NCBI RefSeq assembly: GCF_055900595.2
Contig: NZ_CM148325.1
Reading direction: 5' to 3' (one strand)
DNA: 64,000 nucleotides
Positions within the stretch are counted from its first letter, which is position 1, and each line of letters starts with the position of its first letter. The notes below the pieces were generated by a model that ran no database searches, was not told the origin of the DNA, and worked only from the letters and a program-made list of their open reading frames with translations. Made by a program: the position numbers and the translations under genes. Shown piece after piece: positions 11,249 through 41,214 of the stretch.

Positions 11249-11503
11249 CTATGCGGGGATCTTGGTACCAGAGCGCTTTGGGACTTTGGCCAGATTTTTC
11301 TGTACCGCGTTATCAATATGGTGATGGTTATTTTCCTGCCGTGCTTTGAGCCAGCGTTCCACTTCCTCTTTGTCCCACGCGACGGCGCGCTTCGTTAGCG
11401 CAAAACGTTTGGGAAACAGGCCTTTTTGCTCCAACGCATAAATCGTACTTTCAGAGAGTGGCACCATCTGTAAAAGCACGTTTTTTCTAATGGCAATTTT
11501 CAT
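11249..11503 (-). CDS. alpA: AlpA/Vis-family excisionase-type transcriptional regulator
   Basis: Motif LSESTIYALEQKGLFPKRFALTKRAVAWDKEEVERWL matches the AlpA family; adjacent to int. Confidence 0.7.
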   Translation of the reverse strand: MKIAIRKNVLLQMVPLSESTIYALEQKGLFPKRFALTKRAVAWDKEEVERWLKARQENNHHHIDNAVQKNLAKVPKRSGTKIPA

Positions 11504-12314
11504 TGTTTATTCCTTTAATCCAAAGGCACTCAGTTCTGATAACAGATCCTTTTTTACCAGCAGCGGCAGATTGCTTTGTCTCTTTACGCCAGCCGGTTAG
11601 CAAATCGTTATACATTTCGGTGTCGTAGCCGCTGATAACCACGCTTCCTTGTAACCGGGTGACGGTCTCCAGTAAGCGCAGGTGGGCACCATCGTCCATT
11701 TCGTGGCGATAATATTTGTTAGTCAGATTACGGGTGCTATGAACATACGGCGGATCGACAAAATGCAGCGTGTCGGCGGCGTCATGATCCAGAATACACT
11801 GGATGGCATCGCGGTTTTCCACCAGAACCCCTTCAAAACGCTGACCAACGGCGGCCAGATTATCGGGCATACGGCTCCAGATGTGTTGGGCCGTTCCACT
11901 GGCGCGTTTAGTGTCCAGCCGAAAGCCGGTAGTGCCTTTAGTTGCCCCGGCAGAACCGAAGCCCATCGTGGCGCGAATCACTAAACGCCTTGCCTGTTCA
12001 ACAGAATTTTTCCCATAGCGATAGGCCGAAATAAACTCGGTGCGGGAATAGGGTGTCAGGCTGCAGGCTTCAACCAGTCTTTCGCGCAGTTGTGGGGTAC
12101 GAAGAACGGCGAACAGGTTAACGACGTCGCCATCCAGATCGTTGTAAACCTCGGCGTAGCTACGTGGTTTTCTGAGCAGTACGCTGGCTGCACCGCCGAA
12201 GGGTTCCACATAGCATCTGTGGGCCGGAAAGTGGCTAATGATCCACGGAGCTAGTCGCCACTTGCCGCCGTGGTAGCGGATTGCAGGGTGCTTAATCATC
12301 CAGTTTTTCTCCAC
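11487..12314 (-). CDS. DNA adenine (N6) methyltransferase, Dam family (copy 1)
   Basis: SAM-binding motif YVEPFGGAASVLL and catalytic DPPY (FVDPPYVHSTRN). Confidence 0.8.
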   Translation of the reverse strand: MEKNWMIKHPAIRYHGGKWRLAPWIISHFPAHRCYVEPFGGAASVLLRKPRSYAEVYNDLDGDVVNLFAVLRTPQLRERLVEACSLTPYSRTEFISAYRYGKNSVEQARRLVIRATMGFGSAGATKGTTGFRLDTKRASGTAQHIWSRMPDNLAAVGQRFEGVLVENRDAIQCILDHDAADTLHFVDPPYVHSTRNLTNKYYRHEMDDGAHLRLLETVTRLQGSVVISGYDTEMYNDLLTGWRKETKQSAAAGKKGSVIRTECLWIKGINNENCH

Positions 12315-12891
12315 GCCGTTCTACGTTCAGGTGTCGCCACTGCACCGCAATCCGTTTCATCACCGCATTCCCCTCTGGGATCACCTCCTGCGGCTCCTTC
12401 ATCAACATGACCCGCCCCCGAATAACGATCAGCGCTTGTTCCAGCAGGCCATAGTCCAGATAACAGAGATCGGGAATATCCAGTTGCCACACATAGCCAT
12501 TCCATGCTGAAAGTAGCACTTGCGCGGCGGCGCGTCCGCCGCTGGTTTCTGTGAGCGCGATTTTGGCAAGTGTATTGACGGCTGCGCCATATTCCTCTGG
12601 CGTGACGCGGAGTTTCTGCTGGCTGTTATCTTCTTTTGCCAGCGTTAATAATCCAATCGGGTGTAATACGCCCAGCTCTTCCATCTTTTCTTTCAATGTT
12701 GCAGCTGTATTCCATCCAATTCTGAATTTGCGCTGCAGGCGGCTGATACTGATAATGCCTTCCGCCTCGGCCAGTTCGACCGCTTTGGGATAGAGTTCAT
12801 TGAGCCGATATTCGTAATCAGCGAAGGGCGCACCGCTATTCTCTGGCAGGCCAGAGAGTGTTTGTGAATTATTTCCAGAGGATTTCATCAT
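12292..12891 (-). CDS. Hypothetical protein with FtsK-gamma-like winged helix
   Basis: Segment IISISRLQRKFRIGWNTAATLKEKMEELGVL resembles the FtsK gamma-domain consensus (S.S.lQR..rIGynRAarl.e.mE..G); remainder unrecognised. Confidence 0.45.
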   Translation of the reverse strand: MMKSSGNNSQTLSGLPENSGAPFADYEYRLNELYPKAVELAEAEGIISISRLQRKFRIGWNTAATLKEKMEELGVLHPIGLLTLAKEDNSQQKLRVTPEEYGAAVNTLAKIALTETSGGRAAAQVLLSAWNGYVWQLDIPDLCYLDYGLLEQALIVIRGRVMLMKEPQEVIPEGNAVMKRIAVQWRHLNVERRGEKLDD

Positions 12892-12901
12892 AATTTCCTT
12901 T

Positions 12902-15559
12902 TTAACGTTGAAAAACCCAACACTTCACCGTCGCCGGGCGGCGCGGTGCGGCTGGGTAACGGCGGTTAAATTCAGCGTTGATGCCGCTGTTAACCGTTCT
13001 GACTTCAATAAACTTGTGGGTACGGCTGGTTTTTAGCACTCGCTTCAAATCGCTGATCGGCGGGATCTGCTGGCGGCGCTCGGTAGCCAGTTGAATAAAG
13101 TGGTTAAGGTTAACGGCGATAAGCTGTTCATCGCGCGAGTGGTTGAGCTGTGGTTCGTCGTCGCCATCGAGGAAGTCGAAAATATCCCAGAACTCCTGCA
13201 CCAGAGGATGGTCGGCGCTGATGGCCTGTTGGCGCTCCAGACTGAGGCGGATAAACATTTCTCTGGTCGCCTGTAGCTGCTCTTCCGTGACCGGAATAAC
13301 CAGCGCCAGCGCGTCGAGCAGCGCCATAAGCTGGGCGTGGTTTTTAATGATGCGGATATGGCGAATATCTGGGTGGGAGTGAAGTTGCTGCTCGTATAGC
13401 GGGATCTGACGGTTAACGCACTCCAGCACGGCCTGTTCCGCCAGCGCTGCCTTCAGCATAAAGCCGGAAAGCTGTTCTACCGGCAGGCGTTCGAGCTGCT
13501 CGGCAGCGACCTTGGTCTGAGTATTCTGGCCGCTGCGGTCGGTGTACAGGTGAATAATACGTTCCAGCACCGGGTTAGAGGCGCTAACATCGGCGTTTTG
13601 CGCAATCACAATCGCGCCCCGGAACGGCGGTTCATAGGTCTCGTTGCCGCTGTTACGCAGACCGCGAGAACGCACCGACCGCCCGTTATAGGCGGTTTTC
13701 AGCTCTTCCCAATCAAAGCCACGCTGCTTTGCCCCCTCCTGATTACGGTCACCCTCGATCAGCACCACCGGCATATTTGCTACCTGCGCAAAGTTGCGCG
13801 CGCGGGCGGCCAGCGTTGATTTAGACGGATCGAAACCTTCATAGTCGCGTCGGCCCAACAGTTTCCAGAGGAACTCTATCAGCGTGGTTTTACCGCTGCC
13901 GGGTTCGCCAACGATTTCCAGAAATGGAAAGCTCTTGTGCTTGTCGCGGATCTGTTCGGCAAACATCGTCCCAAACCAGTACGCCAGCGCCACAAACCCC
14001 TTTGCGCCAAACGCCTGCCAGAGTAGCTGGGGCCACTGGCTGTCCATCTGTTTTAAATTGTCGTTCAGCGTCAGGCTGACCGACTGGTTCAGGCTTTTAA
14101 GGCTAAGTTTGCCCATGTCGAAGAAGTCTTCTTCGTTGAGTGTGTACAGCCGACCATCGCGAACGGCCAGATCGTTGAACACGTAAGCGCGGTATTCTTT
14201 GCTGTAGCCGATAAAATCAGTGGTCTGGACAGTTTTGATTTTGGGAAGCTGCTTGAGCAGCAACTTATCTAACTGCTGACTGGTGCCGGTGAAGATGCCG
14301 CCCTGCGCGATATGCAGCAGGCGCTTTTTGAATTCTGAGCCGCTGGAAAGTTGGGAGCCGGTGAAGGTGTTTTTTATCGGTGGAGTGTCGTCGGGGAAGT
14401 TAATGCGAAAGTAATACCAGCTTTCGTCGGTAATGGTGTTGGCCTGATAGTAGAGGGCGGTCGGGTAGCAGTTGGCTATCTCAACAACGGCGGCTGACTC
14501 CTGTAGCGCTTTATGTTTGGCTTCTTCTTCGTCCAGCTCCTCTTTGCCGTTATACATCACGTTATCAAAGGCACGCATATAACGGTCAATATCCAGCTTG
14601 AACCAGTACAGGCGGCTGTCGAACTCGAAGTGAAACTCTTTGCGTTCGGTACGCTCATGCATCAGTAATGCTTTGGCATTCGGATTGGGAGCGATCAACA
14701 GTGAACCGTAGTAACGATATTTTTTAATCAGATCCGGGTTTAGCCGATCGCGCTGGTGCAAATCGTTCCAGTCCAGCTTGGTGCGGGAATAGGGCGTTTG
14801 TGCGGCGGTGGAAAGCCAGCCGTCGTCGCGGCTGCGTTTTACCCAGCGGCGGGTGTAATTCATGCCCGCTTTGTCGTTATCCAGCGCCCAGACCAGTAAA
14901 GGACGCTTTTTATCCACGAACAGCGCGGCCAGTTGGCTTAACGCCTGCGCCGGATAGTTGTTACAGGTCATCAGGGAAACGGCGGCAATGCCGTGGTGGT
15001 GCAGGGCGATAGCGTCAAAAATGCCCTCAACCAGCCAGATCTCCTGCTGTTCTTCCAGCTTAAGCGTTGGCAATTGCCACCATAGCCCGCTGTAAGCGCC
15101 GTGAAAATTGGCTTTGCGATCGCCGAAACGCTGTGGGCGGTCAACGATCCGCTCCCACCACACGCCGTCAGCCAGCGGGAAACGCACAGTGGCCGAGCCG
15201 AGATCGCGCCGTGCGTCATAGTAGTTCTCTTGAGCGTAACAGTTACGGAGCAGCGAAAGGTCAAAGCCGCGCATCTCGCGCAGGTAGGCATCGGCGGCGG
15301 CCTGTGGGTTTTCCGGGGTTGGGGGATATCTGTCTGACCAGCTTTCAAATAGATCCGGGTACACCTCTTTGATATGGATTTCGGCATTGCATTTATTCAG
15401 GCGACCGCAGCGCAGTACCCACGGGCTGATGGCGTAGGTGTACAGCTCTTTTTTCTGGCAGTCCGGGCAGACGCCCTGCCGCAGCCAGTCGCCCTGTTCT
15501 TTAAAGGAAAAATCGGCTAGCAGTCGCCGCGTAATTTCCTGATGAAGTTGTGGTTGCAT
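12902..15559 (-). CDS. Replicative primase-helicase (P4 alpha / HP1 Rep-like)
   Basis: N-terminal zinc-binding motif CPDCQKK ... CGRLNKC, TOPRIM-like EGIFDAIALHHHG and LDNDKAG (DxD), and Walker A GEPGSGKTTL. Confidence 0.75.
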   Translation of the reverse strand: MQPQLHQEITRRLLADFSFKEQGDWLRQGVCPDCQKKELYTYAISPWVLRCGRLNKCNAEIHIKEVYPDLFESWSDRYPPTPENPQAAADAYLREMRGFDLSLLRNCYAQENYYDARRDLGSATVRFPLADGVWWERIVDRPQRFGDRKANFHGAYSGLWWQLPTLKLEEQQEIWLVEGIFDAIALHHHGIAAVSLMTCNNYPAQALSQLAALFVDKKRPLLVWALDNDKAGMNYTRRWVKRSRDDGWLSTAAQTPYSRTKLDWNDLHQRDRLNPDLIKKYRYYGSLLIAPNPNAKALLMHERTERKEFHFEFDSRLYWFKLDIDRYMRAFDNVMYNGKEELDEEEAKHKALQESAAVVEIANCYPTALYYQANTITDESWYYFRINFPDDTPPIKNTFTGSQLSSGSEFKKRLLHIAQGGIFTGTSQQLDKLLLKQLPKIKTVQTTDFIGYSKEYRAYVFNDLAVRDGRLYTLNEEDFFDMGKLSLKSLNQSVSLTLNDNLKQMDSQWPQLLWQAFGAKGFVALAYWFGTMFAEQIRDKHKSFPFLEIVGEPGSGKTTLIEFLWKLLGRRDYEGFDPSKSTLAARARNFAQVANMPVVLIEGDRNQEGAKQRGFDWEELKTAYNGRSVRSRGLRNSGNETYEPPFRGAIVIAQNADVSASNPVLERIIHLYTDRSGQNTQTKVAAEQLERLPVEQLSGFMLKAALAEQAVLECVNRQIPLYEQQLHSHPDIRHIRIIKNHAQLMALLDALALVIPVTEEQLQATREMFIRLSLERQQAISADHPLVQEFWDIFDFLDGDDEPQLNHSRDEQLIAVNLNHFIQLATERRQQIPPISDLKRVLKTSRTHKFIEVRTVNSGINAEFNRRYPAAPRRPATVKCWVFQR

Positions 15560-15647
15560 TGCCAGTACCTTTATTCAGGTAATACTTACCCGTCGCATAG
15601 ACACGTTGTTTATGCGTTGTGGTTGTGAGTCTTTTATTTACTGAGCG

Positions 15648-15896
15648 TTACGCGATTTTCTGCTTTTGCAGAAATTGCCCGCGTGTGGATAGCGGTATGT
15701 GTATCTTAGGATTCGGGCAACCGCTGGGTACTACCGTTCCCATCACGGTCTCCATCGCGATAAATGAAAACGAACAGTTAACGTTCTTGCACTGGTAATA
15801 GAGCTTACGTACCAGCGGTGACATATATTCGCTGCTGCGAATTATCGCCTTACCGTCGCAGTGTGGGCATTTCATCATGTCCGATCTCCTTACCAC
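15648..15896 (-). CDS. ogr: Ogr/Delta-family zinc-finger late transcription activator
   Basis: CPHCDGKA ... YYQCKNVNCSFSF matches the Ogr/Delta C-x2-C ... C-x4-C zinc finger. Confidence 0.8.
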   Translation of the reverse strand: MVRRSDMMKCPHCDGKAIIRSSEYMSPLVRKLYYQCKNVNCSFSFIAMETVMGTVVPSGCPNPKIHIPLSTRGQFLQKQKIA

Positions 15897-16201
15897 TTTT
15901 AACTAACTGAAACACTAACGCTTTTCGTTAACGGACTGACGAAATAGTGTGATGCCGTTCAAAAAAATGATTCTTGCCATGCTGGACATCGAACGGTTCT
16001 GCTCCAGCGCTAATGCTTACAGTTCCGCGATTTCAGCGGGGAGCAGACGCATTGCCACCGGTTTGTTCGACATCACCCCGCGGGGTGCTCGTGAGCGTAA
16101 GACGTTCTCATTTGTTTTCATGGTGGTATATTGTGGTTATTAACATTACACAATCTATAATTCCCTCAATTGAGTGAATTGTCAATGGTAATTATATCCA
16201 A
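15897..16201. promoter_or_regulatory. Divergent switch region between ogr and the HTH repressor-like gene
   Basis: 305-bp non-coding region with AT-rich tract acaatctataattccctcaattgagtgaattgt (inverted ACAAT ... ATTGT ends) just upstream of the HTH gene. Confidence 0.4.
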
Positions 16202-16540
16202 ATGAAAGAATTTGGCATCCGTTTGAAGGAAGAACGTATCCGACTTGGCCTTGATCAAGACGGCTTTGGACAACTTGGGGGCGTGAAGAAAAACGCACAA
16301 AGTAACTATGAGAATGGACTGCGCAAGCCGGACAGTGACTATCTTGCTGGCATAGCGGCAGCGGGAGTTGATGTTCTGTATGTTCTAACAGGCAACCGCA
16401 CGCCTGTGGCTACGTTGTCCAGTAAAGAGAGTGTGTTGGTGGAGAACTATCGTTCTGCTACGCCAGAACACCAGTCCACCCTTGACACGGTTAGCGCTGC
16501 GCTTGCGCAACCGGGAGTAGGGAAAGCAGCTAAGGGATAA
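16202..16540 (+). CDS. HTH XRE/Cro-C1-type regulator, probable prophage immunity repressor
   Basis: N-terminal HTH FGIRLKEERIRLGLDQDGFGQLGGVKKNAQSNYENGLRKP; divergent from the early/late regulators; GC content like the phage backbone. Confidence 0.65.
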   Translation: MKEFGIRLKEERIRLGLDQDGFGQLGGVKKNAQSNYENGLRKPDSDYLAGIAAAGVDVLYVLTGNRTPVATLSSKESVLVENYRSATPEHQSTLDTVSAALAQPGVGKAAKG

Positions 16541-16580
16541 CGAGTAGAATGAATTTGGTTATTGTCTGTATGGAGGCAAA

Positions 16581-17153
16581 ATGAAGTTGAATAATCTGGT
16601 TGCTCTTTACAGGAACATGACAGAGCAAAAATTGGATAGGGTTAAATTCCCATACAGACACAATAATTTACATTTTGATGTATTTTTCTTTATTGATGGA
16701 AAACCGTTTGAGCTTCTTTTCGGAGCATTAGGCGCTAATCTTTGCTTTCGTCTAAAAGTCGAGAAGGGATTCGTCATAAATCCTAATCTGGGAAGTGAGA
16801 CTTATAAAGAATTATGCAAGGCGCTAGGTTTGAAATATGACCCTGCCAATCCATTTAGAACAAGTAAGTTTTTTGAAGATTTTGATGGGAAAATCCCTAC
16901 ATCGGTTACTGTTAAGAATAAGGCAAAATATACTGATATTGCTGTGCATGTCAGGGATGTTGAAGAAGCAGACAGAATATATTTCTGTGGATGGAAAAAC
17001 AACAATGAAGAAAAGAGTCATGTTACTGAAGATAATTTAAAGAAAACGAAAGAGTTTTTAGGGTATCAGGCTTTTCTTGTTTGTAAGGAAAAGAATATTA
17101 GCAGTAGATGGACTGATTTAGAAAATAAAGCAAAAGATTTTTATTTACCATAG
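16581..17153 (+). CDS. Hypothetical protein (cassette gene 1), no recognisable motif
   Basis: 190-aa ORF with RBS ggagg upstream, AT-rich codon usage, 40 bp downstream of the HTH gene. Confidence 0.5.
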   Translation: MKLNNLVALYRNMTEQKLDRVKFPYRHNNLHFDVFFFIDGKPFELLFGALGANLCFRLKVEKGFVINPNLGSETYKELCKALGLKYDPANPFRTSKFFEDFDGKIPTSVTVKNKAKYTDIAVHVRDVEEADRIYFCGWKNNNEEKSHVTEDNLKKTKEFLGYQAFLVCKEKNISSRWTDLENKAKDFYLP

Positions 17154-17167
17154 GATTGTGAGGTTAT

Positions 17168-18316
17168 ATGTCTGATATTTCATTAGGGTGCGTGGTTGTT
17201 CATAGGTTGATAAAAGAGCAACATAAAGATTTCGATCACTCAAAACCATATAGTCGCCGTGATACGGTTCTTGACCGAAATAATGAAATCGTAATTAAAC
17301 TAGTGTCCAGTATAGCCGCATTGTATGGTAAAAAATCTAATAGCTCGCATTATGGTATATTTAATTTAGATGAAACACGCAGGGGGCCTTTTCCAGCGGA
17401 ATTTGATAAATATCGGAATGATACATCCAAGAAGTTAGACGATGAATTGTTTATAGGATTATCAAAAAATGTTATGCATCAGTTATATATTGAGGCAAAG
17501 GATCGACCTGCTGCATCAGGAGGATTACTTCTTTTTGCTGATTATATCAGTAAATCCGTGCGTTACTTTCTTATTGCAATGATTAAGCAAAAGGAAGGTA
17601 TAGTTATTAGTGATAAATTAGAGCCAAAGGAGTTAGAGCATCTTGATCTGGCAAAACTAAACCAGGCGGCACGAATAAACTATGATTTGTATGATAAATA
17701 TATTTCCGCTGATGAGAATGAAAGACAGGATGTTAATTATTTAAGTTTTGTTAGTCCCAGTTCTAACCAGACAACTTCAGGGTATTTCATTACTGCCTTA
17801 GGTTGTGATAAAGGTAATACATCAACTAAAGCTACGAGTAATTTAATTAATGAATCTTTTAACTTCTTCAGAAATCATCAAGAATTAAAGGATAATGCCC
17901 GTAAATTTAAAAATGAAATTATTGAGTATTTATTCGATTGTTCTGAAAATAACATTTCAGCTAAGCTCTCTGTTGTTAGTGAGATGGCGGCGAAGCATAT
18001 GGTTAATTTAGAAGATGACATTAAAGATAAATTGTCAGAAGAATTATATGCTCATTTGAATAGTGAAAGTATTCGTGTGCCTGTGGAATTTAGGGTAAGC
18101 AAATCAGTAGTTAAGAAAAACAGAAATATTAAATATACAAGTGATAATGTTAATTTTGAGTTTAAATCTAGTTTACTAGGCAATACTCTTGATAATGAGA
18201 TATGCTATAATAAGAAAACTGGACATTTAACTTTTACTCGGATTACTCCTGAGAAAAAAAGTGAAATAGCTCAATTGCTTGATGAGTTAATAAAAGAAAG
18301 AAATAGCGAAAAATAA
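17168..18316 (+). CDS. NdpA/YejK-like nucleoid-associated-protein family member (cassette gene 2)
   Basis: N-terminal VVVHRLIKEQH and SGGLLLFADYISKSVRYFLIAMIK align by eye with YejK IALHQLIKRDE and [24 protein letters not shown] (sequence recalled from memory); further colinear similarity towards the C-terminus. Confidence 0.5.
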   Translation: MSDISLGCVVVHRLIKEQHKDFDHSKPYSRRDTVLDRNNEIVIKLVSSIAALYGKKSNSSHYGIFNLDETRRGPFPAEFDKYRNDTSKKLDDELFIGLSKNVMHQLYIEAKDRPAASGGLLLFADYISKSVRYFLIAMIKQKEGIVISDKLEPKELEHLDLAKLNQAARINYDLYDKYISADENERQDVNYLSFVSPSSNQTTSGYFITALGCDKGNTSTKATSNLINESFNFFRNHQELKDNARKFKNEIIEYLFDCSENNISAKLSVVSEMAAKHMVNLEDDIKDKLSEELYAHLNSESIRVPVEFRVSKSVVKKNRNIKYTSDNVNFEFKSSLLGNTLDNEICYNKKTGHLTFTRITPEKKSEIAQLLDELIKERNSEK

Positions 18317-18318
18317 GG

Positions 18319-18957
18319 TTGCTTAATATGTCATGTTTTGAAACGGTTGTTGAGCTTTTCAGATATGTAGGGCGTCCTAAATTTGATGCTATTAATAATC
18401 GTTTTTCAGCAACTATTTCTTATGATGCTCATATATATGAACTCTTAGTTTCTTTGCAACCTCATACAGCGTGGGGAGAAATTGAAGAGATTGTCATTGA
18501 TGATGTGGATATAGATGTTGATGATAGCCTTCCCGCTAAAGGAACATCAATAACACTGACAATCTCTATATCAACTGGAGCTAGTGAGTCATTTTTTATC
18601 GATATTAAAGATCTAATTCAAAAGTCTCCGATGTTAAATAGAGGTATTTTAAGAAAGTCTTTTTACTTGGTTGAGGAAGATTTTTATTTTAATGAAGGAA
18701 TGGTTGAGGGATTAGCAAAAATACCAGAACTATCTGTTTTAAAGAATCTTTGTGATTTTATTTTATGTCTATCAAAAGTTGCACACTACAGCAATAGTAA
18801 AAGTGATGATGTATGCCATAAGTTAGTTTTCTTGAAAAATACTAATGCTAAGTCATTACCTTTAATTATTGAAACTAATGTTGATTATTCACTTCTTTTA
18901 ACAGGTATTAAGGATTTAAAAATCATCGAATCTTTTTCTGATGAAAAAAAGCTATAA
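18319..18957 (+). CDS. Hypothetical protein (cassette gene 3)
   Basis: 212-aa ORF starting 2 bp after gene 2; acidic stretch IDDVDIDVDD; no recognisable motif. Confidence 0.5.
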   Translation: MLNMSCFETVVELFRYVGRPKFDAINNRFSATISYDAHIYELLVSLQPHTAWGEIEEIVIDDVDIDVDDSLPAKGTSITLTISISTGASESFFIDIKDLIQKSPMLNRGILRKSFYLVEEDFYFNEGMVEGLAKIPELSVLKNLCDFILCLSKVAHYSNSKSDDVCHKLVFLKNTNAKSLPLIIETNVDYSLLLTGIKDLKIIESFSDEKKL

Positions 18958-19001
18958 CGGATGATAATTATTTTGAGCGAAAAGGGATTTTCATTAATAC
19001 G

Positions 19002-19583
19002 GTGGTCGATTTTCTTGAATCAATCGATGTAAAGAAACAGTTTCATTTTTTATTCTGTGAGTGGGATGAATTTCTAAAACTATACCATAATAACCTCGGT
19101 GTATATCTTAGTGGTTTTTCATTTCATAAAGTAAGAAAGGAAGTGGCAGAGGCAGAAGCTAATTTAGCTGAGCGTTTTTCAAAAATAATGTCAGACATGA
19201 TAGCTAAGCTTTTAGGTATTCCTGTTTCTTTGGTTGCTACTTTTGGCATGATAAAATTAAATACCCTGCCGGAAATGTTAGTGGTTTTTTTAGGTGTATT
19301 GCTCACGTCGATAATTATGTTTTTTATTGTAAGAAGTCAATACACACAGTTTAGGATGATTTGTGATGCTAAAGATATTATATTTTCCCCATTAGTGAAA
19401 AAATCTGTAGGTTATACAGAAGATTTGAAAAAATTAGTATGCAATGCAAAGGATAATTTAGACAAAAATCAGGTCATGTTAAATCGTTACCTTCTTTTCT
19501 TTCAATGCTTATGCTGGATTCCGACAGCCTTAGGTGGTGGAATGATCTTAATGGCTATTATGGTTCATTTAGGATTACTATAA
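19002..19583 (+). CDS. Predicted membrane protein with two hydrophobic helices (cassette gene 4), putative effector
   Basis: Hydrophobic segments LLGIPVSLVATFGMI ... LVVFLGVLLTSIIMFFIV and LLFFQCLCWIPTALGGGMILMAIMVHLGL; 3' end overlaps the convergent gpD stop by 6 nt. Confidence 0.5.
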   Translation: MVDFLESIDVKKQFHFLFCEWDEFLKLYHNNLGVYLSGFSFHKVRKEVAEAEANLAERFSKIMSDMIAKLLGIPVSLVATFGMIKLNTLPEMLVVFLGVLLTSIIMFFIVRSQYTQFRMICDAKDIIFSPLVKKSVGYTEDLKKLVCNAKDNLDKNQVMLNRYLLFFQCLCWIPTALGGGMILMAIMVHLGLL

Positions 19584-20678
19584 ACTTAATTCCATTTCTA
19601 ATGCGGTGACATAACCAGTACCGCCATCCAACGTATGCACGCACCGCGTAATCACCCACGCGGTGCCATCAATTTCCGCCTTAAACCCCTTCACCTGCAG
19701 CGGTAATTCCGGGAACAAATCGGGCCGTCCACGCGCAAGATTCAGGCTGAACGTTGCCGCGCCGCGCTGTAGCTGCTCCCACGCGCTTTTTGCCGCTCTG
19801 TAGGCGTTATTTTTGTTGGCATAGGTGTGGCGCAGCACCTTGATATTTCCCTCTTCGCCAACCATCACGTTATCAGCATTGAATGAGGCGTCTGACGGCG
19901 GAGATTCTGTTGGTTGCGTTTGTGGACGGTTTTTCCGTGTCTTGCGCTTCATGTCAGTGGACTGCTTTTTTGCCTGCCGTGTATCCAGCCAGTAGGCCGT
20001 CACACCGGTATACGCCTCCCTGTCCGCGATGCTGAACCGGTGGCTGTCGCCGTCCTCGCGGGTAATGGTTGCGACCGGCAGCGGTTTGCCGCTGGCACTT
20101 TTACCGGAACCTGTCGGCATTAGCAGCAGAGCATCATTTTTCACGCAGGCGATAGCGCCGTGCAGTTGCGCCAGCCGGGTCAGGAAGGAGGCATCGGATT
20201 CGTTAGTCTGGTCAACGTGCTCAATGGCGATCCCAGCCAGCTCGCCGCTGACGGTTGATTCCAGCTTATGACGCGCCGCCACGGTTTGCACAATCGCGCC
20301 CAGCGTCGCATCATGGTAGCTCTGTTCCCGTTTAACGTTCAGCGAATCGCGGAAATCGGCGCTGCGGGCGCGGAGGCTGAGTACGTCCGGTGCGCCGCTG
20401 TGCTCCAGTTCGTCCACTGTGAAGACATTCTGGTGCATCACGCCGTCACCCTTCCAGCCTAGAGAAACCGTTAGCTTTTCGCCCTTTGCCGGAAACGCCA
20501 GCAGGCCGTCGCTGTCGTCCAGTTCGAGCTGCAGTTCGTCGGCCTCAAAGCCCCGGTTGTCGGTGATACGCAGGCTGATTAAGCGGTTGTCCAGATTCCG
20601 CGTAATGTCCTTACCGTTCAGCACCACGCTGTACTCCGGCTGCGGCTGGGCGTTTAAGAGTGCGTTTAACATCGTCAT
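19578..20678 (-). CDS. D: Tail protein D (P2 gpD-like)
   Basis: 366-aa ORF at the end of the tail operon, upstream neighbours U and T in P2 order; N-terminus MTMLNALLNAQPQPEYSVVLNGKDITRNLDNRLISLRITDNRG. Confidence 0.8.
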   Translation of the reverse strand: MTMLNALLNAQPQPEYSVVLNGKDITRNLDNRLISLRITDNRGFEADELQLELDDSDGLLAFPAKGEKLTVSLGWKGDGVMHQNVFTVDELEHSGAPDVLSLRARSADFRDSLNVKREQSYHDATLGAIVQTVAARHKLESTVSGELAGIAIEHVDQTNESDASFLTRLAQLHGAIACVKNDALLLMPTGSGKSASGKPLPVATITREDGDSHRFSIADREAYTGVTAYWLDTRQAKKQSTDMKRKTRKNRPQTQPTESPPSDASFNADNVMVGEEGNIKVLRHTYANKNNAYRAAKSAWEQLQRGAATFSLNLARGRPDLFPELPLQVKGFKAEIDGTAWVITRCVHTLDGGTGYVTALEMELSL

Positions 20679-21103
20679 AGTCCGTCTACCATCGTGATGA
20701 TGTCGCCCAGCAAGCCACCCAGCTTCGGCGGATCGACACGTTTTAACGCCAGCGTAAACTCAATGCGCCGGGCCGCACCGTCGCGAAAAAAGACGCTCCG
20801 GGTGACGTTCAGACTCTCAATCACAAACCAGCCATGCAGCGATCCGGTGCCTTCAATCAGCGGCCAAGCCATCCCCTGATCGGCCATCTTTCGCAGGAAA
20901 AACAGGGTAAATCGCCCGCCGGTCAGTTCCGGCAACAGCACGCCGTTTAGCGTAATGGTTTCGTCACCCACGCCGATAAACTGGCTGGCCGGACGTAGCC
21001 CCACGCGGGAACTGGCAGGATGCCGCCACGCTACGGCGTGCTGCATATCCTGATAGGGCAGGGTTTTCAGGCTGAAGACGAACAGCCCCAGTACCATCAT
21101 CAT
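20675..21103 (-). CDS. U: Tail protein U (P2 gpU-like)
   Basis: Probable start MMMVLGLFVF at 21103, just after the T stop (ORF track extends to 21211); P2 gene order. Confidence 0.75.
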   Translation of the reverse strand: MMMVLGLFVFSLKTLPYQDMQHAVAWRHPASSRVGLRPASQFIGVGDETITLNGVLLPELTGGRFTLFFLRKMADQGMAWPLIEGTGSLHGWFVIESLNVTRSVFFRDGAARRIEFTLALKRVDPPKLGGLLGDIITMVDGL

Positions 21104-21113
21104 AAGAGCCTCC

Positions 21114-23963
21114 TTAATCAATATCGCGCAGGCTGCTGCGGGTTCTGGCGGCATTCTGCCTTTCGCGCTTGTCCAGTTCCTGCGCCACCAGTTTCGCCAG
21201 TTGTTGTTCATTCATGCCGGGAGCAGCGTGGATGTGAATAGTGACAGGCCCGCCGCTGGCTGCCGGTACAGAAAGGGATGCTGGCGCGAGCGGGGCGCGA
21301 TTATCCGGCAGGGCGGCGATAGGGGGCATGGCGACAGCGGCGGCGCTGAGCGTCAGCCCGGCACCGGCGGCGATTAACTGCTTCGAGAGTTGCCCTACGC
21401 TGGCCAGCGCCGTTTGCGTGTTGCCCTCAATCCCGACCGCCAGCCCGTCCACGGTATAGCGGCCCATTTCGGCGAACACCCGCGACGGTGAATGAATACC
21501 GAGCTTGTCCTTAAACCAGTTGGAAATATTGCTGCCCAGATCCAGCACGCCCTGTTTAATCGCTTCCCATTTGGCAAAGATCCCCTGTTTCAGCCCTTCC
21601 ATGATATTGCCGCCGATCTCGGTAAAGCGGGTGGACAGGTTACTGAAACTGTTCAGAACGTTATCCCAGACTGTGGTAAACACCGTGGACAGGTTCCAGT
21701 TGGTGAAAAAAGCATTGATGGCATTCAGGGCAGTGCTGACGGTGGTTTTAATTCCCTCCCAGATACCGGTGGCGGTAGTGGTAATGCCCGTCCAGATTTG
21801 CCCCAGAAATGCCACCACGCTGTTCCACGCCTCAGCGGTACTGGCTTTGATAGTATCCCAGTGCTGGTAAATCAGGCCGGGAAGCGTCCAGTTCAGCAGG
21901 ATATTCACCAGCCCGTTCCAGCAGCCGGAGAGAAACGTTTTAATCCCTTCCCAGACGGCGCTGGTTGTGGCTTTTACACTGTTCCACGCATCGCTGCATA
22001 CCTGCTTAAAACTATTCCAGAGCGCGGCGAACTTCGGCCCCAGCCAGTCCCAGTTACTCCAGATCCAGATGGCGGCACCGGCGATCAGCGCAATCACCGC
22101 CAGAATCGGGTTAGCCATCATTGCGCGGCCCAGCCAAATTACCGCTTTTCCCGCGCCTTTAAAGGCATTCGCCAGCAGCCCCAGCGCGCTGCCGCCCTTA
22201 ATACCGAGCACCGACAGGCTGAGTTTTAGCGCCGCCATCGGGCCGAGGATACCGGCCAGCGTCAGGGATATGCCTCCGAGCGCCACGGCGAACGCGCCGA
22301 TCGCCATGCCGATTTTCACCAGCGTGGCGGTTAATTGTGGGTTGGCCTTCATCCATGCGCCGATGGACTGTAAAACGCCGGTTATGCGTTGGGTAATACT
22401 GCGCAACGGGCTGTCAACTGATTCGAACATCTCAATACCGAGATCTTCCCACGCCGAGTCAAGATTCTGGAGATCACCCTTCATATTATCGGCCATCGTT
22501 TTGGCAACTTTGCCAGCGGTACCGAGGGAGGCTTTCACCTGTTCGGCATAGGCTTCAATACGCTGCGACGGATCGAGTGACGCCTGTTTGTCGAGCAGTT
22601 CCATCATCGCGGAAGAGGCTTCCACACCGAAAATATCCTTGATGTAGGACATTTTCTTCACGTTGCCGACGCCGCCGATCCCTTGCTTCTCAAACGCGGC
22701 GGAGATTTCTGCCAGTAGCTGCGGCATCTCTTTCATTTTTCCGGTGCTGTCCGCCACCGAGACTTTCAGGTCTTCCAGCGCGGCGGCGGCTTTTTTCGGC
22801 TGTGATGCCAGCCGCAACAGCGCCATACGTAAGGATGTACCTGCCTGCGCTCCCTGAATCCCCACGTTACCCAGCATCCCGACCATCGCTGACATGGTTT
22901 CAAAGTCCTGCCCCGCAGCCTGTGCAGCCGGGCCGACGTATTTCATGGTTTCACCCAGCATCTGCAGGTCGGTATTAGACGTAGTGAACGTGAAGGTGAG
23001 CGCGTCAGCCATGCGTTGCATCTGGTCTGCCGGGATTTTATAGGCGCTCTGAATATTGGAGGCGATATCGGAAACCTGAGCAAGCTGCGTGTCCATCCCC
23101 GCCGCTTTCGCCAGATCCAACATGTGCGGCATCGCCTTTTCGATTTTATCTGGCGTGTAGCCCGCCATTGCCAGAAAACCCTGCCCCTGCGCCACATCGT
23201 TGGCGGTAAAGCTGGTTGATGCGCCTAAATCTCGCGATTGCGTTCGCAGCCGTTTCAGTTCATCAGAGTTTTTATCGGTGCGTGTTAACGCCTGTACGCG
23301 CGACATGCCCACGTCGAAATCGTAGCCGGGCATCATTACCCGCGCGCTGCCGTAAAGCATACCCACGCCGGTGGCCGTCGTGGTTGCGCCGAATCCGGCC
23401 AGTTTGTTGCGGGCGTCCATTGCTCCTGCGTAGCTATTTTTTGCTGCGTTCATCCGCTGCTGCTGCCGGTTTAGCCGTTCCAGTCGCCTGCGCTGTTCCT
23501 CCATGCTACGGTTAGCACTCTCCAGTCGTTGCCGTAGTTCACTCTGGCGCTGGCTGAGATTACGGGTATCGATACCAGCGTTGCGCAGTACGGTGCGGCT
23601 ATGCTGCTGGGCCTGAGTAAGCTGACCATGCCGTTCTTTAAGTCGCCGCGCCTCCTGCTGAGCACGTTCAAACTCCCGACGCATCGCAGCCGTGGGCGCA
23701 GTGCTGCTTTGCATTGCCGTGGCCAGCGCCCGGACGCGATCCTGCGCGCTTTTAAGCTGATTGCCGGTGACGGCGACATCGCGCGCCAGCTTGCGGTAGC
23801 CATCGATTTGTCCGGCCTGTTTGTTCAGGTCTTTGACCTGCTGCTGCGCCGCTTTCAGTGCTCTGGCGGTGTCGCTGCTGCTTTGCGTGACGGCTTTTAG
23901 CGGACGGGTGATTTTATCTACGGCGCTGAGTAGTACCTGTAAACGAAGGTTTTGTGTGCTCAT
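21114..23963 (-). CDS. T: Tail tape measure protein (P2 gpT-like)
   Basis: 949-aa ORF, coiled-coil-rich N-terminal half and Gly/Ala-rich hydrophobic middle; start overlaps the E' stop. Confidence 0.85.
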   Translation of the reverse strand: MSTQNLRLQVLLSAVDKITRPLKAVTQSSSDTARALKAAQQQVKDLNKQAGQIDGYRKLARDVAVTGNQLKSAQDRVRALATAMQSSTAPTAAMRREFERAQQEARRLKERHGQLTQAQQHSRTVLRNAGIDTRNLSQRQSELRQRLESANRSMEEQRRRLERLNRQQQRMNAAKNSYAGAMDARNKLAGFGATTTATGVGMLYGSARVMMPGYDFDVGMSRVQALTRTDKNSDELKRLRTQSRDLGASTSFTANDVAQGQGFLAMAGYTPDKIEKAMPHMLDLAKAAGMDTQLAQVSDIASNIQSAYKIPADQMQRMADALTFTFTTSNTDLQMLGETMKYVGPAAQAAGQDFETMSAMVGMLGNVGIQGAQAGTSLRMALLRLASQPKKAAAALEDLKVSVADSTGKMKEMPQLLAEISAAFEKQGIGGVGNVKKMSYIKDIFGVEASSAMMELLDKQASLDPSQRIEAYAEQVKASLGTAGKVAKTMADNMKGDLQNLDSAWEDLGIEMFESVDSPLRSITQRITGVLQSIGAWMKANPQLTATLVKIGMAIGAFAVALGGISLTLAGILGPMAALKLSLSVLGIKGGSALGLLANAFKGAGKAVIWLGRAMMANPILAVIALIAGAAIWIWSNWDWLGPKFAALWNSFKQVCSDAWNSVKATTSAVWEGIKTFLSGCWNGLVNILLNWTLPGLIYQHWDTIKASTAEAWNSVVAFLGQIWTGITTTATGIWEGIKTTVSTALNAINAFFTNWNLSTVFTTVWDNVLNSFSNLSTRFTEIGGNIMEGLKQGIFAKWEAIKQGVLDLGSNISNWFKDKLGIHSPSRVFAEMGRYTVDGLAVGIEGNTQTALASVGQLSKQLIAAGAGLTLSAAAVAMPPIAALPDNRAPLAPASLSVPAASGGPVTIHIHAAPGMNEQQLAKLVAQELDKRERQNAARTRSSLRDID

Positions 23964-24381
23964 GATTCAACACCGCTGCGCTGGCGGGCCTGCTCCCGCC
24001 AGTAAAGGGTTTCGCCAAGGGTTAATGCGTCCATCGCGGATAGTGGCCAATGGAAGATGACGGCTATGTCGCCTTGAGCCTCCTCTATGCGTCCGGGGTA
24101 TCCGTTGCTTCCGGCGAGGTCTGCGGCAAAAAACCGACAAGCGCCGTACCGAAAGCCGTCAGGTCGATAAAATCCAGTTGCGCCACCTCATGCTTATTCA
24201 GCGGCGGTGCGGTGATGCGCGGTAGAACGCTGGTGAGTGCATCTACGTTAAGGCTTAACAGCTCCACCAGACTGACACCGCGCAGGTCGCCGCCCAGTGG
24301 TTTACGGATCTGGAACTCGACAAATTCGGTTTCGCCGCGTTTCAGGGGAGTATTCAGGGTAACGGTTTTACGTTCGCTCAT
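23960..24381 (-). CDS. E': E+E' tail chaperone produced by programmed -1 frameshift
   Basis: Hand translation of the -1 frame after the heptamer (minus strand, plus coordinates 24127-24133) gives an open extension of about 55 codons ending at a TGA overlapping the T start ATG. Confidence 0.55.
24085..24381 (-). CDS. E: Tail assembly chaperone E (P2 gpE-like)
   Basis: 98-aa ORF immediately upstream of T; ends ...LVGFLPQTSPEATDTPDA with a T TTT TTG slippery heptamer near its 3' end. Confidence 0.8.
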   Translation of the reverse strand: MSERKTVTLNTPLKRGETEFVEFQIRKPLGGDLRGVSLVELLSLNVDALTSVLPRITAPPLNKHEVAQLDFIDLTAFGTALVGFLPQTSPEATDTPDA

Positions 24382-24390
24382 GGTTCATCC

Positions 24391-24906
24391 TTACAGGCCA
24401 ATGGCGCGACGTGCGCCAGCCAGACGGTCTTTGCCGTCGATATTTTCAATAAAGTTCACGGTGTCGATTTCGACGATGGTTTCACCGTTGACGCTCTCTT
24501 TGTAATAGGTACAAAGGGTGCTGATTTTGGTCGCGGAGTTCTCGCCCTGCTTGTATTCGCCGCGATCCAGCTCTTTGTGGCGACCACGCACCACGATTTC
24601 CACCGCGTCGTACTCTTCGCTGTCTTCACGCTGGATAGCGCCGGAGAATCGCAGCATCACGCCGCTGATCTTCGTCCAGCCGATCTGCCGCAGCGCCAGC
24701 AGCTCATAGCCGCCGATTGACCATTCCACGCTGAGCGCCTCGTCATCCAGTCCCAGATCGACATGCGCCGCGCCGTTCATGCCGCCGCCGCGATAGGCTT
24801 CCAGCTTGCGCGTCAGCTTTGCCGGGGTGAAGGACTCCACCTGTGCCAGATAGATATCGCCCTCGTTAAACAGGTTGAGGTATTTCAGTTTGCTGGGTAG
24901 TGCCAT
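24391..24906 (-). CDS. FII: Major tail tube protein (P2 gpFII-like)
   Basis: 171-aa ORF between the sheath gene and E, P2 order. Confidence 0.8.
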   Translation of the reverse strand: MALPSKLKYLNLFNEGDIYLAQVESFTPAKLTRKLEAYRGGGMNGAAHVDLGLDDEALSVEWSIGGYELLALRQIGWTKISGVMLRFSGAIQREDSEEYDAVEIVVRGRHKELDRGEYKQGENSATKISTLCTYYKESVNGETIVEIDTVNFIENIDGKDRLAGARRAIGL

Positions 24907-24920
24907 GGTGCGTTCTCCTG

Positions 24921-26096
24921 TTACACAGTGGTGGCGATGGATTCAGCCAGATTGACCAGATAGCGGTCAGTGATGCGCTGGCGGAACATCAGGTTTTCCA
25001 GCGGCGGCACCGGGGTGTAGTCGTAGTCGATATACGCTTTACCCGCTTTCAGGATGTCCGGCGTGTTGGCGGCGGGATCGAACCATGCGGAGCCGTCGAC
25101 GATGTAGCCGTTGCCTTTCAGTTCGCGGAATTTGGCGTTCACGCCTTCGATAATGTCGCGGAACAGAGAAGCGTGTTGCGGTTTATCTATCGCCCAGAAG
25201 TGGGCGTCGGCGATGGTATCCGCCAGCACCTGCGCGGTGCGGGTGTAGTTCTCAAAGGCAAACAGCGGATCGGTGCTGCAGGTGCGCGATCCCCAGAAGC
25301 GATAGCCGGCGTTGCAAATCAGCGTGGTGACGTCGTGGCTGTTGAGGTAATCCGAATCGGTGGCGGTGGACTGCAGATCCCAGAATACGCTGCGGGAAAT
25401 GCCGGTCACGCCGTTGACGTCAACGTTGGACAGCGTTTTATGCCAGCCGGTTTCTTCATCAATTTTTGCACGCAGGCCCACGGCGCGGGCGGTGGCGTAT
25501 AGGGTACGTTCGGCGGCAGCCTGTGTATCAAAGCCGACAAAATCCGGCCAGATAATCATCGCCTCTCGCGCACCTAGCTGATCGCGATACAGCACCGCCT
25601 CTTCTTTGGTCTGCGCGCCGAACGCCGACAGATAGCTGAAGGCGCGAAGCTGTTGTGAAATGCTGACCAGTTCGGTGGCGATGGGCAGAGAATCCAGCCC
25701 TGGTACCGCCAGAATGCGCGGTTTTATTTTCAGTTTGGTTTGCGAGTCCAGTAGCGCCTTCATGCCGGTGTATTTCCCGGCTGGCGTGCTGCCGCCGATG
25801 ATATTGGCGGTGGTTTCGGCGGCGGAGTCACCTTCGGCTACGCGCACGGCGACCACCACCGGCTGCGTCTGGTCGGCGATGGCATCCAGAGAGTGTGCCA
25901 GCGTACCGCTATCACCGGCTTTACCCAGCGCAGATCGCACGTCGGTTAACAGTACTGGGGTATCAAGGGGAAAGGTTTTTTCATCGGCATCTGAACCGGT
26001 ACAGACAATGCCGATCACGGCAGTGGAAATGGTACGGATCGGGCGCACGCCTTCATTGATTTCAATAACGCGCGCGCCGTGGTGGTAGTCGGTTGC
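24921..26096 (-). CDS. FI: Tail sheath protein (P2 gpFI-like)
   Basis: Strong similarity to P2 FI as recalled (MATDYHHGARVIEINEG ... YIDYDYTPVPPLENL); start chosen at MATDYHH (ORF track extends to 26186). Confidence 0.85.
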   Translation of the reverse strand, partial: ATDYHHGARVIEINEGVRPIRTISTAVIGIVCTGSDADEKTFPLDTPVLLTDVRSALGKAGDSGTLAHSLDAIADQTQPVVVAVRVAEGDSAAETTANIIGGSTPAGKYTGMKALLDSQTKLKIKPRILAVPGLDSLPIATELVSISQQLRAFSYLSAFGAQTKEEAVLYRDQLGAREAMIIWPDFVGFDTQAAAERTLYATARAVGLRAKIDEETGWHKTLSNVDVNGVTGISRSVFWDLQSTATDSDYLNSHDVTTLICNAGYRFWGSRTCSTDPLFAFENYTRTAQVLADTIADAHFWAIDKPQHASLFRDIIEGVNAKFRELKGNGYIVDGSAWFDPAANTPDILKAGKAYIDYDYTPVPPLENLMFRQRITDRYLVNLAESIATTV

Positions 26097-26204
26097 CATG
26101 AGGCGAGCCTCCATCAGGTCAATAAATGACGATGGTGGCACAGAGCGAAAAGGGCGGTGACGGCTTCCACTTGTAACCACTGGCACTACAAGCAGAAGCG
26201 GTTT

Positions 26205-32241: not shown

Positions 32242-32312
32242 GCCGGAATCATTGGGATTCGCGGGCGAAGAGGGAAGGGCTAAGGCTTGTAGGATAATGG
32301 GCTACAAGTAAA

Positions 32313-35924: not shown

Positions 35925-36038
35925 GGTGTTTCCCGCGCGGCGTCAGGTGATGCGGGGATGGTGGCACAGGGGCGGGAAGTGAAGGGAAGGCTTCCGCTTG
36001 TAACTGAGGACAGTACAAGCGGAAGCGATTGGCGAGGG

Positions 36039-41059: not shown

Positions 41060-41214
41060 AACGTTCAGTCCCGGCGTTGGCTAAATAAGCGAATGGTCGG
41101 GTAGTCCTCCGCTATCAGGCAACGGGCTTCGCTTGTAATCATCCGGGTTACAAGCGGCATTGCTACGCGCAGACAGCGGCTTGTTTACGCTGACGGCAGA
41201 AACGAGAGGACGTT

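What the first reader, a model, noticed from the sequence alone, without database searches (positions are those of the whole stretch)
19570..19590. Convergent overlap of the cassette 3' end with tail gene D and no intervening terminator
Cassette gene 4 (plus strand) and gpD (minus strand) overlap by 6 nt at their stop codons. Lysogenic transcription of the cassette would run antisense into the tail operon, and late transcription would run antisense into the cassette, a possible mutual-interference switch.
Basis: seen in the sequence. Interest (0 to 1): 0.3.

Follow-up and report, generated by a model that had tools for sequence, protein, structure and literature searches.

The report
Defence cassette abutting phage tail gene
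The 6-base stop-codon overlap is real and conserved, but it is best read as the fixed end of a swappable anti-phage cassette (NA37 sensor plus membrane effector, here frameshifted) in a P2-like E. coli prophage, not as a demonstrated genetic switch.

Summary
Observation confirmed. The plus-strand ORF ends with TAA at 19581-19583. Tail gene D (minus strand) ends with TAG at 19580-19578. They share 6 nt (CTATAA), and there is no intrinsic terminator at the junction.

The plus-strand gene is the last gene of an AT-rich (about 30% GC) cassette: HTH regulator, DUF6037, NA37 nucleoid-associated protein, and a 418-aa membrane protein. The last two match the architecture of the recently described type II PANGU abortive-infection system. 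In this window the last gene is broken by a 1-nt deletion in an A-tract (18944-18950).

The site is a variable hotspot between a putative repressor gene and D in a P2-like prophage next to guaA. Four cassette types occur there, all antiparallel to D, ending -6, -4, +2 and +25 nt from D's stop. None has a hairpin. The 6-nt overlap persists in a relative with 83.5% nucleotide identity. D's last ~15 codons are AT-rich and follow cassette type, so the junction lies inside the exchanged module.

A mutual-interference switch is possible but untested. I favour temporal separation of the two transcription units plus Rho-type termination of untranslated read-through. Modest interest.

The parts
19578..19583 (.). 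6-nt convergent overlap CTATAA. It holds the TAA stop of the cassette's last gene (+) and the TAG stop of gpD (-).
18328..19583 (+). Last cassette gene, a Pag2B-like membrane effector. It has an acidic N-terminal half and C-terminal TM helices (aa 291-339 and 389-418 of the intact 418-aa protein). It is frameshifted in this window into ORFs 18328-18957 and 19002-19583.
18944..18950 (+). A7 tract (A8 in intact alleles), the site of the 1-nt deletion that breaks the gene.
17168..18316 (+). NA37 / YejK-like nucleoid-associated protein gene (Pag2A-like sensor).
   Evidence: PF04245, E=5e-45; phrog_3767; always paired with gene-4 homologues
16581..17153 (+). DUF6037 gene, function unknown. It is absent from NA37-effector pairs found in other mobile elements.
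16202..16540 (+). XRE-type HTH gene that leads the cassette. It is the putative prophage repressor. Its C-terminal half is conserved in all four cassette types.
19578..20678 (-). gpD (tail/baseplate hub), the last gene of the late tail operon.
19578..19626 (-). Last ~15 codons of D. They are AT-rich (GC 0.36 against 0.56 for the preceding 300 nt of D) and vary with cassette type. This is the right-hand recombination boundary of the exchangeable module.
19584..19733 (+). C-rich, G-poor stretch of the RNA that would continue past the cassette's stop (C/G 2.1 then 1.8). It is a candidate Rho-loading region (inference).
19641..19666 (.). GC-rich 9-bp hairpin inside D, with an imperfect U tail on the + strand. 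It is the only terminator-like candidate near the junction and is not conserved in L017.
20675..26099 (-). Remainder of the late tail operon: U, T (tape measure), E, FII (tube), FI (sheath).
26171..26191 (.). Dyad TTGTA-N11-TACAA upstream of FI, a putative Ogr-dependent late promoter element. Three further exact copies lie at 32287, 35998 and 41133.
15915..16121 (-). Arc-like ribbon-helix-helix gene, first gene of the early operon. This window has a premature TAA at 16017-16019.
15648..15878 (-). Ogr/Delta zinc-finger late activator gene.

Best explanation
The overlap is the built-in right-hand end of an exchangeable accessory (anti-phage) cassette. The cassette occupies a hotspot between the putative repressor gene and tail gene D of a P2-like, RSY1/phiCTX-style prophage integrated beside guaA.

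Cassettes are swapped by homologous recombination, with one breakpoint in the 3' end of the HTH gene and the other about 45 nt inside D. D's last ~15 codons and the cassette's stop therefore travel together as one compact unit. No room was ever left for a terminator.

The two converging units are used at different times. The cassette is expressed in the lysogen. The FI-to-D operon is expressed only after Ogr activation. Head-on conflict is therefore normally limited.

RNA that runs past the shared stop codons is untranslated at once. It is most likely curtailed by Rho: a C-rich, G-poor tract lies on the + strand, and the antisense-cassette RNA has C>G throughout.

Any damping of the cassette by late-operon read-through would be a by-product, not a dedicated switch.

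Shown: the overlap, its conservation, the hotspot, the recombination boundary, and the absence of hairpins. Inferred: expression timing, the repressor role of the HTH protein, and Rho involvement.
For: - Overlap and gene identities.
- Same flanks with a different cassette in E. coli L725 and CEC15.
- Four cassette types, all antiparallel to D and all led by an HTH gene, with junction spacings of -6, -4, +2 and +25 nt.
- No hairpin in any of these junctions.
- The high-identity breakpoint between the window and L725 lies inside D at about 19626.
- D's last 45 nt have GC 0.27-0.36 in type II cassette carriers against 0.56-0.59 for the preceding 300 nt of D.
- The D body follows the backbone: 96-97% aa identity to L725 and L008, which carry other cassettes, but 81.5% to L017, which carries the same cassette. 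The D tail follows the cassette.
- The 6-nt overlap is retained across 83.5% nucleotide identity.
- Other convergent junctions of this phage group are equally tight: int/alpA with a 3-nt gap and RSY1 xis/int with a 26-nt overlap.
- Late-promoter dyads.
- C/G composition of the read-through RNAs.
Against: - No transcript data exist, so timing, read-through and Rho action are all inferred.
- Every cassette type keeps a terminator-less junction. In contrast, the P2-like phage Cartapus fits a clean bidirectional terminator into a 26-nt convergent gap. This contrast could mean that read-through is selected for here.
- The minus strand has no terminator-like site for the whole 3.4 kb between D and the Arc-like gene. 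Late read-through could therefore be extensive if Rho does not act.
- The HTH gene's role as immunity repressor is assigned from position and family only.
Confidence: 0.55

Rival explanations
1. Functional antisense interference of the excludon type. After induction, Ogr-driven transcription of the FI-to-D operon reads through D's stop into the antisense strand of the cassette, and possibly on through the repressor gene into Arc-ogr. This would shut off the prophage's own abortive-infection system and repressor during its lytic cycle. In the lysogen, cassette read-through would add antisense RNA against D.
For: - No intrinsic terminator on the minus strand across the whole cassette.
- The terminator-less junction is kept in all four cassette types and across 16% nucleotide divergence.
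- A related phage shows that a terminator fits in 26 nt when one is wanted.
- The cassette is an Abi-type system said to sense genome damage. A phage might need to silence such a system during its own replication.
- Ogr lies on the same strand downstream.
Against: - Junction sequence conservation is not above background.
- Tight convergent junctions are general in this phage group.
- Untranslated antisense RNA with C>G is a good Rho substrate.
- Carriers tolerate inactivating frameshifts in the last cassette gene.
- There are no expression data.
Confidence: 0.2
2. Cryptic termination signals embedded in the coding sequences give defined 3' ends, so there is little read-through in either direction. 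The GC-rich hairpin at 19641-19666 would act as a weak intrinsic terminator or pause site for cassette transcripts, or as the stem-loop needed for collision-driven bidirectional termination.
For: - The hairpin has dG about -16 kcal/mol and is followed by CAUCAAUUU. The 141-nt segment that contains it folds with z = -2.1.
- Collision-driven termination at convergent genes requires a stem-loop.
Against: - The U-tract is poor.
- The hairpin is lost in L017, which keeps the same overlap.
- There is no counterpart for the minus-strand (late) transcript.
- Collision-driven termination needs both units to be active at once.
Confidence: 0.15
3. Artefact: the overlap comes from a mis-called ORF or a sequencing or assembly error, and the two real genes do not overlap.
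For: The overlapping ORF in this window is only the 3' fragment of a frameshifted gene. The homopolymer indel could itself be a sequencing error.
Against: - The same stop positions occur in five independent sequences, including intact 418-codon alleles and a diverged lineage.
- The gene family has full-length homologues ending at the same C-terminal TM helix.
- D alignments reach its last residue.
Confidence: 0.03

Closest known systems
Prophage defence hotspots (Rousset et al. 2022, PMC9122126): the P2 gpA-gpQ (old/tin) locus, and the hotspot between cI and int of K139-like P2-related Vibrio phages
   Same: A small (2-3.4 kb) locus with high cassette turnover between two conserved phage genes. 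It sits next to or downstream of the repressor gene and is filled with defence-type genes.
   Different: The anchors differ: here they are the HTH repressor-like gene and tail gene D. The phage lineage differs too: it has RSY1/phiCTX-like early genes, and its D is only about 55% identical to sequenced phages. The boundary lies inside the coding end of an essential tail gene, which produces overlapping stops.
Type II PANGU (Pag2A NAP sensor plus Pag2B TM effector; bioRxiv 10.64898/2026.04.06.716658)
   Same: An NA37/YejK-like gene is followed 11 nt later by a gene for a protein with an acidic N-terminal domain and C-terminal TM helices. The L725 variant, NA37 plus RelA_SpoT, matches type I.
   Different: Homology to the tested PANGU-Ecu proteins could not be checked because no sequences are held. 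An extra DUF6037 gene and an HTH gene precede the pair. The effector is frameshifted in this window.
Bidirectional intrinsic terminators between convergent phage units, for example Escherichia phage Cartapus ogr / cI-int-moron operon
   Same: A late tail/ogr unit converges on a lysogenic operon that carries accessory genes, with a very short junction (26 nt).
   Different: Cartapus has a canonical hairpin, AACCTGC-tacg-GCAGGTT, flanked by A and T runs (z = -3.3). The window junction has no gap and no hairpin.
Excludons, and transcriptional interference between convergent promoters (phage 186 pR/pL and P2 Pe/Pc; cited from my own knowledge and via one search's references to Callen 2004 and Shearwin 2005)
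   Same: Oppositely oriented units whose transcripts would overlap. In principle one unit can repress the other.
   Different: In those systems interference has been demonstrated and involves promoters or long mapped antisense RNAs. Here only the 3' ends meet, and no transcript data exist.
Collision-driven bidirectional termination at convergent E. coli genes (Ju et al. 2019; bioRxiv 10.1101/2022.10.23.513370)
   Same: A convergent pair that lacks a canonical intrinsic or Rho terminator.
   Different: That mechanism needs simultaneous expression of both genes and a stem-loop element. Neither condition is evident here.

Membership tests
Convergently overlapping gene pair | Two real protein-coding genes on opposite strands share 3'-terminal nucleotides | tested here: met
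   The 6-nt overlap is at 19578-19583. Both genes have homologues that extend to their last residues. In this window the + gene is a frameshifted pseudogene.
Intrinsic (Rho-independent) bidirectional terminator | A GC-rich hairpin flanked by an A-run and a T-run at or between the two stop codons | tested here: not met
   A positive control in Cartapus was detected.
Rho-dependent terminator | An untranslated, C-rich, G-poor, weakly structured RNA of about 80 nt or more downstream of the stop | tested here: met
   The + RNA has C34/G16 in its first 100 nt. The antisense-cassette RNA has C/G 1.5 overall. This is composition only.
Rho-dependent terminator | 3' ends that disappear when Rho is inhibited (bicyclomycin) | not testable with these tools
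   Needs Term-seq or RNA-seq with and without bicyclomycin.
Excludon / mutual transcriptional interference | Overlapping antisense transcripts from the two units, with reciprocal expression | not testable with these tools
   Only gene geometry and promoter motifs are available.
Prophage defence hotspot (as defined by Rousset 2022) | A 1-5 kb locus between two conserved phage genes with turnover of unrelated cassettes | tested here: met
   Four cassette types lie between the HTH gene's 3' end and D: DUF6037+NA37+TM, NA37+RelA_SpoT, WYL+ThsB_TIR+caspase, and WYL+DUF3644.
Type II PANGU | A YejK-like NAP (NA37) gene in a two-gene operon, with less than 40 bp between the genes | tested here: met
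   PF04245, E=5e-45. The gap to the next gene is 11 nt. The pair is conserved in five other mobile-element contexts.
Type II PANGU | An effector with an acidic N-terminal (DNA-mimic) domain and a C-terminal TM domain | tested here: met
   Net charge is -10 over aa 1-100, and hydrophobic helices lie at 291-339 and 389-418 of the intact allele. This matches the description. The DNA-mimic fold was not modelled.
Type II PANGU | An intact effector gene and demonstrated anti-phage activity | tested here: not met
   The effector is frameshifted in this window. Activity is not testable. Sequence identity to the validated system could not be checked.
P2-like (Peduoviridae) prophage | FI, FII, E, T, U, D tail genes, Ogr/Delta, and divergent capsid/terminase genes with late-promoter dyads | tested here: met

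The most novel reading that the evidence does not exclude
The terminator-less, overlapping junction is a selected self-silencing device. On induction, Ogr-activated transcription from the FI promoter reads through D's stop and runs antisense across the whole defence cassette and the repressor gene, into Arc-ogr. This would switch off the prophage's own abortive-infection system and its repressor, and would reinforce ogr expression. The design would be shared by every cassette that enters this hotspot.
Probability: 0.15. Interest if true: 0.55.

Novelty: new member of a known kind. Interest (0 to 1): 0.25.

Why it matters
If the junction is only a compact module boundary, its value is descriptive. 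It marks a previously uncharted defence hotspot (repressor gene to tail gene D) in a rare E. coli/Edwardsiella P2-like lineage. It also shows that exchanged cassettes can carry the last codons of an essential tail gene.

If late read-through does silence the cassette, it would show how a prophage avoids triggering its own abortive-infection cargo during induction. That question is open for many prophage-borne defence systems.

Tried and rejected
- **Megablast of 15500-20800 against sequenced phages:** no match. The lineage is known only from prophages.
- **PADLOC:** no model hits DUF6037, NA37 or gene 4. A full-text search for DUF6037 returned no papers.
- **Classical P2 late-promoter motif TGT-N12-ACA:** 7 hits against 11.9 expected, so not enriched. 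I replaced it with the dyad actually present, TTGTA-N11-TACAA.
- **Rfam over 15000-21500:** nothing.
- **Special conservation of the junction:** rejected. The 24-nt identical run between the window and L017 is matched or exceeded by nine other runs in the 3.1-kb alignment.
- **Genome contigs, viral contigs and metagenome-contig scans:** these added copies of known cassette types only, with no new types and no empty site. L007 has D truncated by an IS element, so it is uninformative.
- **Simple terminator scan as a control:** it missed hairpins at two host convergent junctions. I checked those by folding instead.
- **PANGU preprint:** no sequences or supplements are held, so direct homology to the validated proteins could not be tested.
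- **Literature on read-through from P2 D into ogr:** not retrievable. No claim in this report relies on it.

Full report
**1. The observation**

The window sequence reads ...GGA TTA CTA TAA ACT TAA TTC CAT... at 19570-19593.

- The plus-strand ORF 19002-19583 ends with TAA at 19581-19583.
- The minus-strand ORF 19578-20678 ends with TAG, the reverse complement of 19578-19580.
- The two share the hexamer CTATAA, which reads Leu-stop in both directions.
- The minus-strand gene is gpD (Pfam Phage_GPD, E=3.5e-23). Alignments to several hundred sequenced Peduoviridae D proteins reach its last residue, so its stop is the native one.

No intrinsic terminator is present.

- The consensus scan found none at the junction and none on the minus strand across the whole cassette (6 sites found in 15000-21500 against 6.6 expected).
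- Folding of the junction on either strand is no better than shuffled sequence (z = -0.35 and +0.65).
- Rfam finds nothing.
- A relaxed scan of my own found only one notable element, a GC-rich hairpin at 19641-19666 inside D. Its U tail on the plus strand is imperfect.

**2. What the two genes are**

The surroundings are a P2-like prophage integrated next to guaA. No tRNA gene was found in the window.

- On the minus strand lie FI, FII, E, T, U and D.
- Left of the cassette, also on the minus strand, lie an Arc-like gene, ogr, a toprim primase, DUF7673, dam and alpA. The integrase gene faces them.

The cassette spans 16202-19583 on the plus strand. Its composition is foreign: GC is about 0.30, against about 0.58 in the phage. 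It encodes:

- an XRE-type HTH protein (16202-16540);
- DUF6037 (16581-17153);
- an NA37/YejK-like nucleoid-associated protein (17168-18316);
- a last gene that in E. coli GMF054 (98.7% identical locus) is a single 418-codon gene.

In the window this last gene is broken. Apart from three substitutions, the only difference from GMF054 is a one-base deletion in an A-tract (A8 to A7, 18944-18950). The ORF that overlaps D is therefore the 3' fragment of a pseudogene, unless the deletion is a homopolymer sequencing error. A second E. coli allele (P0005/L020, 47 database members) carries an independent one-base deletion in a T-tract.

The intact protein has an acidic N-terminal half and C-terminal transmembrane helices that run to the last residue. 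Its few homologues always follow an NA37 gene. They occur in a P4-like element, a Serratia island and a lambdoid prophage.

This matches the architecture of type II PANGU, an abortive-infection system described in a 2026 preprint. In that system a nucleoid-associated sensor activates a membrane effector that has an acidic DNA-mimic domain. Direct homology to the tested proteins could not be checked.

**3. The site is a hotspot and the junction is part of the module**

E. coli L725 and CEC15 have the same flanks but a different cassette: HTH, NA37 and a RelA/SpoT enzyme, which is the type I PANGU layout. Its stop overlaps D's stop by 4 nt, as TTAA.

Two further cassette types occur at the same site:

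- An IMG/VR contig with a 97%-identical D carries HTH, WYL, ThsB-TIR and a caspase. It ends 25 nt from D's stop.
- Edwardsiella ictaluri carries HTH, WYL and DUF3644. It ends 2 nt from D's stop.

All four cassettes are antiparallel to D and all begin with an HTH gene that has a conserved C-terminal half. None has a hairpin at the D junction.

The high-identity breakpoint between the window and L725 lies inside D, at about 19626. The last 45 nt of D have GC 0.27-0.36 in carriers of the type II cassette, against 0.56-0.59 for the preceding 300 nt of D.

The body of D follows the phage backbone. It is 96-97% identical in amino acids to L725 and L008, which carry other cassettes, but only 81.5% identical to L017, which carries the same cassette. 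The D tail (...GYxTxLEMELSL) follows the cassette instead. D's last ~15 codons therefore move with the cassette.

The 6-nt overlap is present in five independent sequences. One is L017, which is only 83.5% identical in nucleotides across both the cassette and D. There the hexamer is the perfect palindrome TTATAA.

The junction itself is not unusually conserved. Its 24-nt identical run is matched or exceeded by nine other runs in the 3.1-kb alignment.

**4. Transcription logic (largely inferred)**

Four exact copies of the dyad TTGTA-N11-TACAA lie in the intergenic gaps upstream of FI (26171-26191), of two other structural gene blocks, and in the capsid/terminase divergent region. Only 1.46 copies are expected by chance. 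They resemble Ogr-type late promoter elements. On that reading, FI-to-D is a late operon that ends at D's stop.

The HTH gene faces the Arc-like-ogr-primase operon across an 80-nt region rich in promoter-like hexamers. This is the position of the leftward genes ORF37-38 in the related Ralstonia phage RSY1, which I take to include its repressor (that record annotates both only as hypothetical proteins). The cassette is therefore probably co-transcribed with a repressor in the lysogen.

Several observations bear on what happens past the shared stops.

- RNA continuing past them is untranslated.
- On the plus strand the first 100 nt are C34/G16. The antisense-cassette RNA has C/G 1.5 overall. These are compositions that favour Rho.
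- The AT-rich cassette is also enriched in promoter-like sites, many of them antisense (25 found against 12 expected).
- Tight, hairpin-free convergence is not special to this junction. int and alpA are 3 nt apart, and RSY1 xis and int overlap by 26 nt.
- In contrast, two host convergent junctions in the window and the Cartapus ogr/moron-operon junction do carry stable hairpins. The Cartapus one is a textbook bidirectional terminator in a 26-nt gap.

**5. Interpretation**

The best-supported reading (about 0.55) has four parts.

- The overlap is a compact module boundary inherited with the cassette.
- The two units are separated in time.
- Read-through is trimmed by Rho.
- Any interference is incidental.

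An excludon-like function remains possible (about 0.2). In that model, late read-through would silence the prophage's own abortive-infection cargo and its repressor. The uniformly terminator-less junctions make this attractive, but nothing here tests it.

A cryptic terminator role for the 19641-19666 hairpin is less likely (about 0.15), because L017 lacks the hairpin. An artefact is excluded by the comparative data.

In this particular genome the cassette effector is frameshifted and the Arc-like gene has a nonsense codon at 16017-16019, which is intact in four relatives. The element may therefore be decaying.

**6. Comparison and novelty**

Defence hotspots in P2-like phages are known. They include the gpA-gpQ locus and a cI-int locus in K139-like phages. 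NA37-based defences are also known, as are convergent overlaps and collision- or Rho-based termination.

This is a new instance of those kinds. It is a hotspot with different anchors, in a rare lineage found in 3 of 5,426 complete E. coli genomes. Its one distinctive detail is that the module boundary lies inside an essential tail gene. Interest is modest.

Noticed in passing
window 18944-18950; L020 about 6719: The Pag2B-like effector gene is inactivated by single-base homopolymer deletions at two different tracts in otherwise near-identical E. coli alleles: A8 to A7 here, and a T-tract in the P0005/L020 allele, which has 47 database members. This could be recurrent loss, phase variation or sequencing error.
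   Followed up: partly
window 15915-16121 (-), stop at 16017-16019: The Arc-like first gene of the early (ogr-primase) operon has a premature TAA (C to A at 16019). The gene is intact in GMF054, L725, the IMG/VR contig and Edwardsiella. The prophage may be locked in lysogeny or decaying.
   Followed up: partly
window 26171-26191, 32287-32307, 35998-36018, 41133-41153: Four exact copies of the dyad TTGTA-N11-TACAA (1.46 expected), each in an intergenic gap of the structural region. They are likely Ogr-dependent late promoters with one more spacer base than the P2 consensus TGT-N12-ACA.
   Followed up: partly
window 11245/11249; L030 11223-11438 / 11413-12648: int (+) and the alpA-like excisionase gene (-) converge with a 3-nt gap and no hairpin. 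In Ralstonia phage RSY1 the equivalent xis and int genes overlap by 26 nt.
   Followed up: partly
L008 11130-13336; L003 11041-13354; L002 3703-6156: Other cassettes in the same hotspot are HTH + TM-WYL + ThsB-type TIR + caspase (Peptidase_C14), HTH + TM-WYL + DUF3644, and HTH + NA37 + RelA/SpoT (type I PANGU-like). The TIR-caspase set resembles recently reported TIR/caspase defences; that comparison is from memory and was not tested.
   Followed up: partly
window 16122-16201: The HTH/Arc intergenic region has promoter-like hexamers on both strands that would fire face to face. It also has an operator-like inverted repeat, ATTGTG-N13-CACAAT (16130-16154), conserved in the E. coli-type relatives. 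This is a candidate lysis-lysogeny switch.
   Followed up: no
L013 6252-8643; L014 6866-9221; L016 1745-4103: The NA37 + TM-effector pair also sits in a P4-like/D5-primase element, in a Serratia marcescens island (where NA37 is split into two ORFs), and in a lambdoid prophage between holin and antiterminator Q. In the lambdoid case it is again convergent, with only a 13-nt hairpin-free gap.
   Followed up: partly
window 16581-17153: The DUF6037 gene lies between the HTH and NA37 genes. It has no PADLOC or PHROG match and no literature. It is absent from NA37-effector pairs elsewhere, so it may be an independent accessory gene.
   Followed up: no
window 16600-19580, minus strand: The AT-rich cassette holds an excess of sigma-70-like sites (25 in 15000-21500 against 12 expected), most of them antisense. 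This is as expected for horizontally acquired AT-rich DNA and is a possible source of antisense RNA independent of D read-through.
   Followed up: no
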